The position numbers and the translations under genes were made by a program. A model generated the notes under the pieces. The model made no database searches. It saw only the letters and a list, made by a program, of their open reading frames with translations, and was not told the DNA's origin. From positions 1 to 64,000 of IMG/VR virus record IMGVR_UViG_3300020171_000018: a stretch of 64,000 nucleotides of DNA; one strand, 5' to 3'. Positions within the stretch are counted from its first letter, which is position 1. Each line of letters starts with the position of its first letter. Origin of the DNA: a virus. Below are positions 8,256-64,000 of the stretch, piece after piece.

Positions 8256-9179
8256 ATGTATTATGGCGACGTAAATGGTGACAATTCCATTGACATGGGC
8301 GACGTGCTCAAGGCTCAGGCCATCGCCGACTTCAACGCGCTCTATCCGCCAGTAGCAGCCGGCACCAAACGCTGGACTGTCACGTATCTCGCAGGCTACG
8401 GTATGTGGGTACGCGCTGACAGCCAGGATATGTCAGGCTGGAAGTACATAGTCCAGTACGACGAGCAACCCGGCATATGGCACGGCCCGCTCACCGAGCA
8501 GGAAGTGCTTGACCAGTGTGGCATGACGGTGGATGTGCTGACACGGGCTGACGTTGACGGTGATGGCGTTGTCACGCAGGCCGACGCGGGCTTGATTCAG
8601 CAGTACATCATGGGGATGATAACCCAGTTCCCGGTCGAGGTAGTACCAATAGAACCACCAGCAGAAACAGAATTGGTAGTAGGAGGAAGTATGCCAACCA
8701 GAACAATCACCGCACAAGGGGTCATACAAAACGCATCGTTGGTCTCCATCACCTGCGCTCTGCGCCTAGAGGTGCAGACGTACAATGTCGCCAGCGGGGG
8801 TACTCCGCTTGCCGGGGGTGGGAGCGTACAATCCAAGACGGGCCTTGTCCTAGCAAAAGCGCCCGAGGGGATATACGTCGTTGGGGCGCCTGCGGGCTAT
8901 ACTCCCAACCCAGCCCAGCCAGCCTTCTCGTACTCAGTGAATGTGCCCGAGGGTGGACGGGTAGAGGCACGGATAATACTCGACATCGTGTCCTGGGAGG
9001 GCAAGACAGCGGGGGAGTCCGCGAAGTTCGACTTCGCCGTCACGCCCTGGGTGGTCAGGCTGGAGTCCGTGATCTCAGCCGGATTGGTGAGCTGGGGCAC
9101 GGTCATAGCCGGACGAGGAGGGCGTGGGGTAGGGAGTAGAGCAGGGGGCAGGATGGGGATGCTCTCAGGGCAGAGCTAG
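8256..9179 (+). CDS. Dockerin-domain protein with an insertion between the two Ca-binding repeats
   Basis: GDVNGDNSIDMGD ... ADVDGDGVVTQAD..LIQQYIMGMITQFPVE. Confidence 0.75.
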   Translation: MYYGDVNGDNSIDMGDVLKAQAIADFNALYPPVAAGTKRWTVTYLAGYGMWVRADSQDMSGWKYIVQYDEQPGIWHGPLTEQEVLDQCGMTVDVLTRADVDGDGVVTQADAGLIQQYIMGMITQFPVEVVPIEPPAETELVVGGSMPTRTITAQGVIQNASLVSITCALRLEVQTYNVASGGTPLAGGGSVQSKTGLVLAKAPEGIYVVGAPAGYTPNPAQPAFSYSVNVPEGGRVEARIILDIVSWEGKTAGESAKFDFAVTPWVVRLESVISAGLVSWGTVIAGRGGRGVGSRAGGRMGMLSGQS

Positions 9180-9284
9180 ACCCGGACTCCCCCGACTCTT
9201 GCCCCGGACTCCTAGGACTCCCAGCGAACTCTTAATCGAGCCCTTGGGAGCTAACGTCTTCTGCTAGGATCCCATTAGGAGGTT

Positions 9285-13823: not shown

Positions 13824-14083
13824 GCCTCGTGGCGATAGTCATTCGCCCCGACCTTTCTAACAGGGCTGCCCCCCTTCTGGCCGACATTCTGGTGGCACTT
13901 GGAGCAGGATATGTAGGTGCGAATGGGCTTCTGCCTCCTGGGGGGTTGGAGAGCCTCCTGTCCCATGGAGGCCTGCTGGGGTGTTGGCGTCCCCGCCTCA
14001 GTGGGCACCGTTACCTTGACCTTGCTCCGCAGGCGATAGAGTACAGACTTGAGCCAGAATATGAGCCGAGAGAATGGATTCAT
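13796..14083 (-). CDS. Small Zn-finger-like protein
   Basis: CSKCH...HEAC; ATGA overlap with the recombinase stop. Confidence 0.45.
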   Translation of the reverse strand: MNPFSRLIFWLKSVLYRLRSKVKVTVPTEAGTPTPQQASMGQEALQPPRRQKPIRTYISCSKCHQNVGQKGGSPVRKVGANDYRHEACLAKMPQK

Positions 14084-15003
14084 GGGTTCCCTCCTTCTAC
14101 ACCTTTCTGCATTCGCTCCTGACTGGGGTGGTCATATATGTCCAGTGTGGTCTTCACCGAGGCGTGCCCCAGCAGCTCCTTGACCACCTTCCAGTCATGC
14201 CCAGTGGCCTCGATTGCCTCGGTTGCGAAGGTGTGCCTCAGCATGTGAGGGTGCAGGCTAGGGATGTCCGCCTTCTTACCGTAGGACTTGACCTTCTTTC
14301 GGATAGCAGAGGTGGTGTAGCGGGTGCCGCGACTGCTAATGAACAGGGGAGCTTGAGGGTCTTTGTTGGTAGCCTCTGTCCTCTGTAGGAAGTAGGGTAT
14401 CAGCACATCCTCCAAGGCAGCAGCAATGGGTAGGGTGCGCTCCTTGCCCCCCTTGCCCATGACCACCAGCTCGTGGCGCACCCCCTCATCGGTTTGGAAA
14501 GGATGAACGCTGCCCAGATTGAGGTTGACCAGCTCCTGCTCCCTGACGCCGGTGTGGGCCAGGGTCATTATCATTGGGTAGTCGGCACCCTTACCCAACT
14601 TCTCCACCGTCCAGAGCAGCCTGTTACGCCTCTGAGGGGTGAGCACTACGGGGTTGCGAACCACCCTGCCCAGTGGTTGGATTCTGGTAGCTGGGCTGCG
14701 GTCAAGGCCCCGCTCCTCCACTAACCAGGTGAAAAATTTGCGGATGGAGACAAGGCGCCTGTTGATGGTAGCTACAGCCTTGATTGACCTCATGGAGTCA
14801 CGGTAAGTGCGAATGTCGGCTGGAGAGCAGTGTGCGGGGTCAAAACTCTCCTTGAGGGCAACCTGATACCACCTTATGAACTCCTGGAGGTCAGTTGAGT
14901 AGGCTTCTTGGGTCAGGGGCGAGAGGTGGCCACAGGCTGAGGCGATGAACTGCGCTGGCCAGGTTAGAGACTCAAGTTGGGTGAACCTTGGGCTAGTCAT
15001 CAT
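14080..15003 (-). CDS. Tyrosine recombinase (XerC/D-like integrase or resolvase)
   Basis: N-terminal SAM-like domain (SPLTQEAY..ATINRRLVSIRKFF); catalytic HTGVR, GKGGKER, HMLRHTFAT, LLGHASVKTTLDIY. Confidence 0.92.
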   Translation of the reverse strand: MMTSPRFTQLESLTWPAQFIASACGHLSPLTQEAYSTDLQEFIRWYQVALKESFDPAHCSPADIRTYRDSMRSIKAVATINRRLVSIRKFFTWLVEERGLDRSPATRIQPLGRVVRNPVVLTPQRRNRLLWTVEKLGKGADYPMIMTLAHTGVREQELVNLNLGSVHPFQTDEGVRHELVVMGKGGKERTLPIAAALEDVLIPYFLQRTEATNKDPQAPLFISSRGTRYTTSAIRKKVKSYGKKADIPSLHPHMLRHTFATEAIEATGHDWKVVKELLGHASVKTTLDIYDHPSQERMQKGVEGGNP

Positions 15004-45225: not shown

Positions 45226-45456
45226 TTACCTCCCTTGACCCGGTTGACCGCGCCTTGGTTGACCGCGCCCCCGGGTGTCATATGGGGCGTTTATGTATCG
45301 CTCGACCTCCACGGCGTCAACATACAGGATTCCCCGTACCTTGACCCCGTGGAGGTCGTTGGCCTTTATCATGCGATAGATGGTGATGAGGGGCTTTCCA
45401 AGCTCCTGAGATACCCTTTTGACCGTCAAGAGAACTAGGGAGCCGTCATCCGCCAC
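45226..45456 (-). CDS. Excisionase/MerR-like HTH DNA-binding protein
   Basis: LLTVKRVSQELGKPLITIYRMIKANDLHGVKV..YV...EVERY. Confidence 0.75.
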   Translation of the reverse strand: MADDGSLVLLTVKRVSQELGKPLITIYRMIKANDLHGVKVRGILYVDAVEVERYINAPYDTRGRGQPRRGQPGQGR

Positions 45457-52875: not shown

Positions 52876-53511
52876 CTACTGTCCTATCACCAAGAGAGCA
52901 GGATCAAGCACGGCCCCCTGCTCCTTATTGGCCTTTTCGCCCTCATTGCCAATCTGCGTCTTCAGGTTGTGCCAAATACGGAGTTCCTCGCCATGTACCC
53001 AGCACGTAGCCAACATGCTGACAGCAGCGCCGTACATGAATCCAGTAATGCCCTCAAGGTCGGCTTCGTGAGACACCTCTTTAGCAATATCCACCAACTT
53101 GGTGCCTGTGGCCATGCGGGCTTCCATAAGGTTGGCCCAGCGTGCTGCATACCTCACACAAGCAGCACCATATGGATCCTTGTTGAACTTAACCCAGGTA
53201 TTCCACTTGGTAACGTTGGTGACAGTGAACGGCTTGATGCCCTCAGCGGCGGCAGCTTCGGCACGGCGTTGCGCTTCTGCGCGCTCGGCAAGCACTCGCT
53301 GGCCCTCAGGTGAGGCTTCCCACCTCTGATGGCGGCGGTTCACCTCCGCGAAGTATTCGTTGACCATGAGCAGGGGGTCACTATCGGGGTTGGCTGTAAT
53401 CGACACGTCGTTGAATGTGGTCGTTACTACCCTGCGGCTCTCAGATGCCCGCTTTGCCATGCGCCGTGTGACCTGTTCTATGGTTTCACCAACCATCGGC
53501 TCGTCCTTCAT
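52876..53511 (-). CDS. Conserved-looking phage hypothetical protein
   Basis: YAARWANLME..GITGFMYGAAV..L..CWVHGEELR. Confidence 0.6.
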   Translation of the reverse strand: MKDEPMVGETIEQVTRRMAKRASESRRVVTTTFNDVSITANPDSDPLLMVNEYFAEVNRRHQRWEASPEGQRVLAERAEAQRRAEAAAAEGIKPFTVTNVTKWNTWVKFNKDPYGAACVRYAARWANLMEARMATGTKLVDIAKEVSHEADLEGITGFMYGAAVSMLATCWVHGEELRIWHNLKTQIGNEGEKANKEQGAVLDPALLVIGQ

Positions 53512-60850: not shown

Positions 60851-61065
60851 TAGGGGTCAAGGGCTCCGCAATAGAACGGAAGTACAGGTGCAGCGGCGTG
60901 GTCACTTCGGCTCCACCACAGTAGCAGGCATAAGGGAGACGACGCCCCGCTTGACCATCATGTAGTACCTCTCAGCGCTCTAGGCTGGAGGTATCCTACA
61001 CGACTTCGGGGTACTAGTCCATAGTTACGCAACGGAGCCCTTGGTTCCTAACGCTAACGGCGTGG

Positions 61066-62587: not shown

Positions 62588-62706
62588 GGCTCTCTTCTCC
62601 TCTCTACTATTGCTGCCCGCCGCTCGGCGTGTGTACGCTACCCTCTGCCCCGTCGGGCAAAGTCGCCGATACCTGACAGTAGACACGGCGGGCTTGCTGG
62701 CGCTGT

Positions 62707-63102
62707 CTACTTTGGCATCTCAACGTCAATATCAGGTATGATAACGGATGGCCTGAATATCACCCTGTAGCGGTAGGCGTCCGCGCGTACAGGTTCCAGT
62801 TGCTCCACGAAGTAGCTGACGTTGTCTGATAGGCCCAGGAAGTGCTTCTTGTAGGTGCTAGGCCCTACCTTGCAAGTCACAGAGAGTTCACTTGACGGGT
62901 CATAGTTGCCTAGTGAACACAGTCCTTCGATAGTTAGCAGGTATGTGTCCGTGATGCCGTTGAAGAACACAATCCTACGTGTAACCTCGAATTGGTCTGC
63001 CGCCTTTGATACGTTCTTTGAAGCTACGTCCGCTTCTGAAGAACAGGCTACCAGGGCCAGGACGCCGGCAACGAGGACGAGTAGGCACAGTAGCTTCTTC
63101 AT
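62707..63102 (-). CDS. Phage lipoprotein of a widespread family (mycobacteriophage gp64-like)
   Basis: Lipobox LVAC; ADVASKNVSKAADQFEVTRRIVFFNGITD..KKHFLGLSDNV; AGGAGG RBS. Confidence 0.8.
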   Translation of the reverse strand: MKKLLCLLVLVAGVLALVACSSEADVASKNVSKAADQFEVTRRIVFFNGITDTYLLTIEGLCSLGNYDPSSELSVTCKVGPSTYKKHFLGLSDNVSYFVEQLEPVRADAYRYRVIFRPSVIIPDIDVEMPK

Positions 63103-63109
63103 GTCTCCT

Positions 63110-63699
63110 CCTTCAATTAGTGGGCTTGCTGGCGCTGGCCCAGCTTGCGCACTGCTTTCGGGTGGTCTCCACCACCAGCGCCAGCCTTGGCAGCCTTGCC
63201 GCAGGAGAACTTGCCCTTTCGGGTAGCTGTCGTCCCACGACTGCCCTATCCTTCCCCGCCGACTGCCACGGGAAGGCCCTTGCCCTCCCTGACGGAGCGG
63301 GCCCCTCAAACTGGCGGTTGCGCTTTTGTCTGTGGCCCTCTGCCACCACGTCCACGCCAGTTATTAGGCATTGTAGCGTGCTGGCACCCCTCGTCTATTA
63401 AGGCATCTCCTGATACGTCCACAAGAGTCTGGCAACTCACCAGTCCGAGCCTGTGGACTGCTCTTGTGCTGGACTCCTAGTTGTCCGCACATGCCACCAG
63501 CACGCTACGACTCAGAGCCTACATTAGTCTCCATCGCCGACCGGACACTTCCACCAGGCCACTGCCATCCTTTGGCGACTCCGGCAGCACCTACACCGTT
63601 CTGGTTTCGCGGTGTCCACGATACATCGTCTCGTGAACTCGCCCTCGGCTCTGAGTAGTCGCCTAAGTCGTTAAAACCCTTCTACGGGCTACCCACCTA
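63110..63699 (-). ncRNA. Candidate large structured non-coding RNA (~590 nt)
   Basis: Perfect 10-12-bp long-range helices (63128-38/63175-85, 63373-84/63497-508, 63510-19/63647-56) and a CCC-GAAA-GGG tetraloop on the minus strand. Confidence 0.7.
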
Positions 63700-63852
63700 C
63701 GTTGACTTTGGAATCCCTATAGGCTCCACAGGCTCCACAGGCTCCACAGGCTTCTGGCAACGAGGGCATCGGCGCACCTCTACCTTCCGTGGAGCCCAAC
63801 TGTGCCCGCAGAAGGCGCAGGTGACCATAGTTACTGGGACGTTGACCGGCAT
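63697..63852 (-). CDS. 51-aa Zn-finger protein (below the ORF-track cutoff)
   Basis: MPVNVPVTMVTCAFCGHSWAPRKVEVRRCPRCQKPVEPVEPVEPIGIPKST*; GGAGG RBS. Confidence 0.7.
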   Translation of the reverse strand: MPVNVPVTMVTCAFCGHSWAPRKVEVRRCPRCQKPVEPVEPVEPIGIPKST

Positions 63853-63876
63853 TGCAAACCTCCGACGTTATGATAT

Positions 63877-63905
63877 ATGATATACTCTAATAATTCCACC
63901 GTCAA
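63877..63905 (-). promoter_or_regulatory. sigma70 promoter (leftward)
   Basis: TTGACG-17 nt-TATCAT; tandem TATGATA repeat across the -10/+1 region. Confidence 0.75.
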
Positions 63906-64000
63906 GGGGGGTGTTTGGTGACAGCCATAGGCAAGCCCCGCCGAACCATAATCGTCACTCCGGCCAGATCCCCTATTCCACCCAGACCTGATCCCAGCCC

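What the first reader, a model, noticed from the sequence alone, without database searches (positions are those of the whole stretch)
63110..63699. Large (~590 nt) ornate structured RNA candidate
The non-coding stretch between the 51-aa Zn-finger gene and the lipoprotein RBS has nested perfect helices: 12 bp (63373-84/63497-508), 10 bp directly adjacent to it (63510-19/63647-56), 11 bp (63128-38/63175-85) and 8 bp (63420-27/63461-68). It also has TAGGC/GCCTA closing a multiloop, many local hairpins and a GAAA tetraloop on the minus strand. The two ends (UGGGU near 63695, GCCCA near 63121) could pair. Size and viral context recall large phage ncRNA classes such as ROOL or GOLLD, but I cannot assign it to any, so it may be a new class or a ribozyme.
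Basis: partly seen in the sequence, partly recalled or inferred. Interest (0 to 1): 0.75.

Follow-up and report, generated by a model that had tools for sequence, protein, structure and literature searches.

The report
Orphan stem-loop cluster in phage spacer
The largest gene-free gap of this groundwater phage carries a cluster of long perfect stem-forming repeats that chance does not explain. It has no relatives, matches no known RNA family and has no expression data, so it remains an unproven candidate RNA structure.

Summary
The 593-nt gap 63104-63696 lies on the minus strand between an orphan 51-aa zinc-ribbon gene and a Phage_VG64 lipoprotein gene, and I found no sign of coding in it.

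That cluster is beyond chance. None of 5000 shuffles gave three such stems, and no other 593-nt window of the 85.8-kb genome has three. Two stems abut with one base between them, and a 6-bp stem encloses both, which gives a three-way junction.

The "ornate 590-nt RNA" reading is weaker:
- The folding excess (z about -4) comes mostly from the closing stems. The domain interiors are barely better than shuffles.
- z is the same on both strands.
- The end-to-end stem and the D1 stem vanish when flanking mRNA is added to the fold.
- One mostly coding window reaches z -4.5.

No Rfam family matches, including ROOL, GOLLD, OLE, RNase P and introns. No homologue was found in any collection; the nearest helicase is 38% identical. 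Other runs hold identical copies, so covariation cannot be tested.

My best reading, at about 40%, is a cis-acting structured segment of the early operon mRNA in a region prone to cassette and IS insertion.

The parts
63877..63905 (-). Promoter-like site TTGACG-17-TATCAT (10 of 12) in an AT-rich island. It is the likely start of the minus-strand early operon.
   Evidence: sequence
63697..63852 (-). 51-aa zinc-ribbon gene with a GGAGG ribosome-binding site. It is an ORFan: the only hit among 5.8 billion proteins is itself.
63722..63748 (+). Three tandem 9-bp repeats (GGCTCCACA) that encode PVEPVEPVEP. As RNA they are perfectly complementary over 11 nt to 63447-63457 inside D2.
63104..63696 (-). 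593-nt gene-free gap, the largest in the 85.8-kb genome. No frame has a coding signal, a family hit or a usable ribosome-binding site.
63364..63666 (-). Core three-way junction: the 6-bp stem P1 (63666-63661 with 63369-63364) encloses D1 and D2. z is -4.2 on the minus strand and -3.8 on the plus strand.
63510..63656 (-). D1: a 147-nt domain closed by a 10-bp perfect stem. Its interior is no more structured than shuffles, and the closing stem is lost in the long-context fold.
63373..63508 (-). D2: a 136-nt domain closed by a 12-bp perfect stem (14 bp with G-U) over two internal hairpins. It is the most robust part: pair probabilities are 0.96-0.99 in both contexts and z is about -4.9.
63370..63397 (-). 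Weak internal promoter-like site TAGACG-16-TACAAT (9 of 12) inside the 3' arm region of D2. It could be the lipoprotein's own promoter.
63128..63185 (-). 3' hairpin (D3c): an 11-bp perfect stem (12 bp with G-U) carrying two small inner hairpins. Pair probability is 0.97-0.99. z is -2.45 on the minus strand and -0.5 on the plus strand.
63270..63289 (-). 8-bp hairpin GGGAGGGC/GCCUUCCC, pair probability 0.98-0.99.
63214..63223 (-). CCC-GAAA-GGG tetraloop hairpin.
63122..63137 (.). Upstream copy of a 16-bp direct repeat (GGGCTTGCTGGCGCTG). It overlaps the 3' arm of D3c.
   Evidence: read
62690..62705 (.). Downstream copy of the same 16-bp direct repeat, one base after the lipoprotein stop codon. 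The two copies bracket a 416-bp cassette of ribosome-binding site plus lipoprotein gene.
   Evidence: read
62707..63102 (-). 131-aa lipoprotein of family Phage_VG64 (PF25682, E 2e-54) with its own strong ribosome-binding site.

Best explanation
The gap is an untranslated, strongly self-complementary segment of the minus-strand early operon transcript of a temperate groundwater phage. RNA polymerase would start at the promoter-like site near 63880, read the 51-aa zinc-ribbon gene, and then transcribe about 300 nt that can fold into a three-way junction. In that junction a 6-bp stem (P1) encloses two adjacent domains of about 140 nt, closed by 10- and 14-bp stems. A looser 260-nt leader follows and ends in an 11-12-bp hairpin just before the lipoprotein's ribosome-binding site.

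I read it as a cis-acting mRNA structure. It could be a processing or stability element, or an insulator between the first early gene and an inserted lipoprotein cassette that may have its own promoter. I do not read it as a free-standing ornate RNA.

Shown: the gap, the helices, their statistical excess, the promoter-like sites, the cassette repeats and the absence of any known family.

Inferred: transcription, the strand, folding in vivo and any function.
For: - The gap is non-coding by every test. No frame scores positive in D1-D2. The gap ORFs have no Pfam or PHROG hit. ORF80 has no homologue and was not called as a gene. TAG is the commonest genuine stop, so there is no recoding. The only start with a strong ribosome-binding site is the lipoprotein's.
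- It is the largest gap in a densely coded genome.
- Three perfect stems of 10 bp or more occur in 0 of 5000 shuffles, and this is the only such window in the genome.
- The whole-gap MFE z is -4.1, against -2.4 to +1.1 for 12 random windows.
- The stems are 112-127 nt apart, so they can pair only in single-stranded nucleic acid.
- All flanking genes are on the minus strand, downstream of a 10-of-12 promoter match, and no terminator is found.
- D2, the 3' hairpin and two small hairpins keep pair probabilities of 0.94-0.99 in two different contexts.
- A second gap of the same operon (60851-61065) is also stem-closed and structured, with z -3.7 to -4.2.
Against: - No homologue exists, so there is no covariation evidence.
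- Other runs hold identical sequence, so there are no variants either.
- z is equal on both strands, and the helices are almost purely Watson-Crick. That is what DNA-level inverted repeats would look like.
- The excess stability is largely the closing stems. The interior z is -0.4 to -0.7 for D1 and -1.5 to -1.9 for D2. Stem-bounded domains inside coding regions reach a whole-domain z of -5 to -6.
- One mostly coding 593-nt window reaches z -4.5.
- The D1 stem, P1 and the end-to-end stem are lost in the long-context fold.
Confidence: 0.4

Rival explanations
1. A non-functional spacer. The gap would be debris of gene decay and mobile-DNA traffic (cassette insertion, IS or MITE-like ends), and its inverted repeats would be DNA-level leftovers with no role as RNA.
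For: - 16-bp direct repeats bracket the lipoprotein cassette exactly.
- The next gap of the operon holds an orphan IS end, 61004-61040, that is 35 of 37 identical to an inverted copy at genome 75912-75948.
- An intact IS6-like element with 26-bp terminal repeats lies at genome 76228-78114.
- The stems are perfect Watson-Crick and strand-symmetric, and the interiors are near random.
- The 12-bp arms of D2 plus TT equal the arms of a multi-copy repeat family in two Verrucomicrobiota MAGs.
Against: - Each stem sequence occurs only once as a pair in the phage genome.
- The D2 interior is unrelated to the MAG repeats. A model of D2 finds nothing at genome-level E of 0.01 or below in 151 genomes of that order.
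- The arm match could be chance: about 0.07-0.3 such hits are expected in 596 Gb (my calculation).
- Two stems abutting with one base between them and enclosed by a third is not expected of independent insertions.
- No target-site duplications flank D1 or D2.
Confidence: 0.3
2. A free-standing large structured non-coding RNA of a new class. It would be processed out of the early transcript and act in trans, in the manner of ROOL or GOLLD.
For: - The size (about 300-590 nt), the phage context and the multi-branched predicted fold.
- The stem cluster is beyond chance.
- It matches no known family.
Against: - It has no terminator of its own and sits inside an operon between two genes with ribosome-binding sites.
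- No homologues were found, whereas known large ornate RNAs are widespread families.
- The interiors are not more structured than shuffles.
- The global fold depends on context.
Confidence: 0.13
3. A DNA-level or single-stranded-DNA signal. Examples are a lagging-strand priming site (plasmid sso/ssi-like), a regulator-binding region, or a recombination site used while the region is single-stranded during replication.
For: - Folding excess is equal on both strands.
- The gap lies at the head of the replication-gene operon, which encodes DinG-like helicase, nucleases and PolA.
- An 8-mer, GGCTCCAC, is clustered here: 8 of its 12 genomic copies lie in 60.9-64.6 kb, and D2 contains 11 nt complementary to the repeat junction.
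Against: - No iterons lie inside the gap.
- The integrase is 49 kb away, so this is not attP.
- The genome has no reverse transcriptase, so this is not a retron or DGR.
Confidence: 0.12

Closest known systems
ROOL (RF03087) and GOLLD (RF01998), large ornate RNAs often found in phages and prophages
   Same: The size range, the phage location, a multi-branched predicted fold and the absence of coding capacity.
   Different: There is no covariance-model match even at E up to 10. There is no family of homologues. The candidate is embedded between two translated genes without its own terminator. Its structure is carried by a few perfect stems rather than many conserved junctions.
Intercistronic stem-loops of phage early operons, such as the RNase III processing sites of T7 early mRNA (from my own knowledge)
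   Same: They are cis-acting stem-loops placed between genes of an early polycistronic transcript, downstream of a strong early promoter.
   Different: Those sites are single irregular hairpins of about 60 nt. Here there are 136-147-nt domains closed by long perfect stems and joined in a three-way junction. Processing has not been shown.
MITE or REPIN-like repeat elements, including the Verrucomicrobiota family with arms ending TTGTAGCGTGCTGG
   Same: Units of 120-160 bp bounded by perfect inverted repeats. The 12-bp arms of D2 are identical to that family's inner arms.
   Different: The candidate is single-copy in the phage. It lacks the outer part of the family's arms and has an unrelated interior. 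No target-site duplication is present, and the covariance model finds no members.
Plasmid single-strand origins and ssi signals, and ColE1 RNA II (from my own knowledge)
   Same: A few hundred nucleotides of highly folded single strand near replication functions. In the RNA II case this is a roughly 550-nt structured untranslated transcript used by a Pol I-type polymerase.
   Different: There is no sequence or model similarity, and no evidence of priming here. An origin-like locus was proposed elsewhere in the genome.

Membership tests
ROOL (RF03087) | Match to the Rfam covariance model at or above its gathering score | tested here: not met
   cmscan of the whole window at gathering thresholds gave 0 matches. 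A permissive scan of 62900-64000 at E up to 10 gave only a noise hit to Methylosinus-1 (11.9 bits against a gathering score of 145).
GOLLD (RF01998) | Match to the Rfam covariance model at or above its gathering score | tested here: not met
OLE, RNase P, group I and II introns, HEARO/omega RNAs, small self-cleaving ribozymes (Rfam 15) | Match to any of these models | tested here: not met
   all 4227 families were scanned on both strands
Conserved structured non-coding RNA (generic) | Homologues with compensatory base changes in the helices | not testable with these tools
   No homologue was found in the phage records, in 160 loci carrying lipoprotein homologues, in 80 loci carrying helicase relatives or in 5 other loci. 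The D2 covariance model found nothing relevant. Other runs hold identical sequence.
Conserved structured non-coding RNA (generic) | A discrete transcript with its own ends | tested here: inconclusive
   There is an upstream promoter-like site and a weak internal one, and no terminator-like site on either strand. No RNA run is available.
MITE / REPIN-like mobile repeat | Several copies with conserved terminal inverted repeats and a related interior, flanked by target-site duplications | tested here: not met
   The candidate is single-copy in the phage. Only the 12-14-nt arms match the Verrucomicrobiota family, and the interiors are unrelated. There were no hits in 151 genomes of that order.
Retron msr-msd or DGR template repeat | An adjacent or same-genome reverse transcriptase | tested here: not met
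   PF00078 has no match in the 85.8-kb genome.
Phage attP | Lies next to the integrase gene | tested here: not met
   The only tyrosine integrase is at 14080-15003, about 49 kb away. There is no serine recombinase.
Hidden or recoded protein gene | An open frame with coding signal, a homologue, or a single recoded stop type | tested here: not met

The most novel reading that the evidence does not exclude
The roughly 300-nt three-way junction (P1, D1, D2), alone or with the 3' leader, is the founding member of a new class of large structured phage RNA. It would be made from the first early transcript of a phage lineage that is itself nearly unsampled. That would explain why no homologues can yet be found.
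Probability: 0.12. Interest if true: 0.7.

Novelty: new variant of a known kind. Interest (0 to 1): 0.3.

Why it matters
If the fold is real and functional, it adds a large RNA element from a deeply divergent temperate groundwater phage. The phage's helicase is at most 38% identical to anything among 5.8 billion proteins.

It would also show how such a phage organises its first early transcript around an inserted lipoprotein cassette.

As it stands, the value is modest. It is a statistically real but orphan cluster of stems that needs transcript mapping and probing before it can be called an RNA.

Tried and rejected
Homologue searches, all empty:
- blastn against 50,697 phage records.
- blastn and nhmmer against 80 IMG/VR and 80 metagenome loci carrying lipoprotein homologues, where only the gene itself matches.
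- 80 loci of helicase relatives at 35% identity or less, with no synteny.
- Loci of p73 and the 148-aa zinc-finger protein.
- The zinc-ribbon protein and ORF80, which have no homologues.
- A covariance model of D2 over all 260 loci. Apart from the model's own source sequence in the window (172.5 bits; its plus strand 20.4 bits), it gave a 28-bit hit driven by the shared arms and a 13-bit, E 5 noise hit in L057.
- The same model over 151 Chthoniobacterales genomes, with no match.
- An exact scan for the D2 arm pair in IMG/VR, with 0 hits.

Sequencing runs: no RNA holder is listed. Contigs of four other groundwater runs are identical over the gap, so they give no variants.

Readings rejected:
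- TAG or TGA recoding.
- A hidden small gene.
- Retron or DGR.
- attP.
- An intrinsic terminator.
- D1 and D2 as duplicates of each other.

One control misled. Regressing MFE on composition gave noisy residuals (sd 16 kcal/mol) and understated the signal. Direct shuffles were used instead.

Full report
**Context.** The window is bases 1-64000 of an 85,802-bp IMG/VR viral contig with direct terminal repeats. The same sequence occurs in several groundwater metagenomes. The genome is densely coded. It encodes a tyrosine integrase, a PolA with an N-terminal UDG domain, a DinG-like helicase, nucleases, a methyltransferase and a Tad4 homologue. The lineage is very isolated: the nearest helicase among 5.8 billion proteins is 38% identical, and the best phage-record PolA matches are 26-42% identical.

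**Anatomy.** All genes around the finding lie on the minus strand.
- A promoter-like site, TTGACG-17-TATCAT, sits in an AT-rich island at 63905-63877.
- It precedes a 51-aa zinc-ribbon ORFan at 63852-63697.
- Then come 593 nt without a gene (63696-63104).
- Then comes a 131-aa Phage_VG64 lipoprotein with a strong ribosome-binding site.
- The gap is the longest in the genome.

**The gap is non-coding.**
- No frame has a positive codon score in its 5' 300 nt.
- Its ORFs hit no Pfam or PHROG family.
- The 80-aa ORF that ends at the lipoprotein's ribosome-binding site has no homologue and was not called as a gene.
- Stops of all three kinds interrupt the frames.
- TAG ends 14 of 33 long ORFs, so it is a genuine stop and is not recoded.
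- The only start with a strong ribosome-binding site is the lipoprotein's own.

**The observation.**
- Shuffles of the gap average 0.10 perfect stems of 10 bp or more within 300 nt. None of 5000 shuffles has three.
- Among 1705 sliding 593-nt windows of the genome, only those over this gap have three.
- Genome-wide, such stems occur at about the chance rate: 46 in 85.8 kb.
- On the minus strand the 10-bp stem (D1, 63656-63510) and the 14-bp stem (D2, 63508-63373) are separated by one base.
- Both are enclosed by a 6-bp stem, UUAGGC/GCCUAA, which gives a three-way junction.

**How strong the folding signal is.**
- The whole gap folds with z -4.1 on the minus strand and -4.7 on the plus strand.
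- Twelve random windows of the genome gave z from -2.4 to +1.1.
- Among eight windows picked as the most stable by regression, one mostly coding window (genome 81835-82427) reached -4.5. The next two reached -3.05 and -2.8.
- By domain (minus/plus strand): D2 -4.9/-5.2, D1 -2.7/-3.4, the 3' 259 nt -1.8/-2.4, and the 3' hairpin -2.45/-0.5. The flanking genes score about -0.3 to -0.7.
- A key control: any domain bounded by a perfect stem of 10 bp or more scores z -1 to -6, inside coding regions too. With the closing stem removed, the D1 interior scores -0.4 to -0.7 and the D2 interior -1.5 to -1.9.
- When the transcript 63870-63060 is folded, D2, the 3' hairpin and two small hairpins keep pair probabilities of 0.94-0.99. 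The D1 stem, P1 and the end-to-end stem are replaced by pairings with the coding flanks.

The cluster of long stems is therefore real and unusual. An ornate single 590-nt fold is not established, and the strand cannot be told from the energies.

**Known families.** cmscan against all 4227 Rfam families gave nothing at gathering thresholds. At E up to 10 it gave only a noise hit. ROOL, GOLLD, OLE, RNase P, introns, HEARO and the small ribozymes are thereby excluded as memberships. The genome has no reverse transcriptase. The integrase is 49 kb away.

**Relatives.** None were found by DNA, by synteny or by a covariance model of D2. Contigs from four other groundwater runs are identical, and no RNA run is listed.

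**Signs of DNA traffic around the gap.**
- A 16-bp direct repeat (63122-63137 and 62690-62705) brackets the ribosome-binding site plus lipoprotein gene, to within 19 bases at the upstream end and one base at the downstream end. The lipoprotein therefore looks like a cassette inserted into an older non-coding region of about 690 nt.
- The next gap of the operon (60851-61065) is also stem-closed and structured, with z -3.7 to -4.2. It contains an orphan IS end whose inverted copy lies at genome 75912-75948, next to an intact IS6-like element.
- The 12-bp arms of D2, plus two flanking T, equal the inner arms of a multi-copy inverted-repeat family in two Verrucomicrobiota MAGs. The interiors are unrelated, and about 0.07-0.3 chance hits are expected for that scan (my calculation). 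One of the two MAGs (G002, locus L248) is unpublished. The same point rests independently on G001 (L247, L257).

**Verdict.**
- The most likely reading (about 0.4) is a cis-acting structured stretch of the early operon mRNA. The rivals are inert debris of mobile DNA (about 0.3), a free-standing new large RNA (about 0.13) and a DNA or single-stranded-DNA signal (about 0.12).
- The feature is real, orphan and unproven, so interest is moderate to low until transcript and probing data or relatives exist.
Nothing like it was noted on other DNA.

Noticed in passing
window 63122-63137 and 62690-62705: A 16-bp perfect direct repeat brackets the lipoprotein gene and its ribosome-binding site, a 416-bp unit. 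This is the signature of a gene cassette inserted into an older non-coding region. None of the 160 loci carrying lipoprotein homologues has this boundary sequence next to the gene.
   Followed up: partly
window 60909, 63722-63747, 63789, and genome 64023, 64035, 64591: The 8-mer GGCTCCAC, often as TTGGGCTCCAC, occurs 12 times in the genome against 4.5 expected. Eight copies lie in 60.9-64.6 kb, around the divergent early promoter region. It may be an operator. It shares GGGCTCCA with the tip of the IS terminal repeat.
   Followed up: partly
window 60851-61065: A second structured intergenic gap in the same operon: a 186-nt domain closed by an 11-12-bp stem, with z -3.7 to -4.2 on the minus strand and no Rfam match. 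It contains a 37-bp orphan IS end (61004-61040) that is 35 of 37 identical to an inverted copy at genome 75912-75948.
   Followed up: partly
genome 76228-78114 (outside the window): An intact insertion sequence with 26-bp terminal inverted repeats (25 of 26). It carries a 317-aa transposase-like protein with an N-terminal zinc finger, plus a 125-aa ORF. An IS inside a phage genome is unusual.
   Followed up: partly
L247 23-145, L257 2-121 (G001); L248 2108-2231 (G002, unpublished): A multi-copy inverted-repeat family in Verrucomicrobiota MAGs, with 26 arms in G001, often at contig ends. The arms are about 27 nt, and the internal hairpins change by compensatory substitutions between copies. It is a REPIN or MITE-like element, or a small structured RNA, in its own right.
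   Followed up: partly
window 9010-9194: A domain closed by a 12-bp perfect stem at the 3' end of ORF 8256-9179 and the following gap. It has the strongest folding excess of all the stem-bounded domains tested: whole z -5.9/-5.5 and interior z -2.8/-4.7.
   Followed up: no
window 45226-45440: The most stable 140-nt windows of the genome after correcting for composition (residual z -4.4 on the minus strand). They lie inside a 76-aa ORF and include a 12-bp perfect stem at 45303-14/45347-58.
   Followed up: no
window 14080-15003 and 52876-53511: A tyrosine integrase (PF00589, E 8e-29), so the phage is probably temperate. Also a homologue of the Thoeris inhibitor Tad4 (PF25186, E 1e-31).
   Followed up: no
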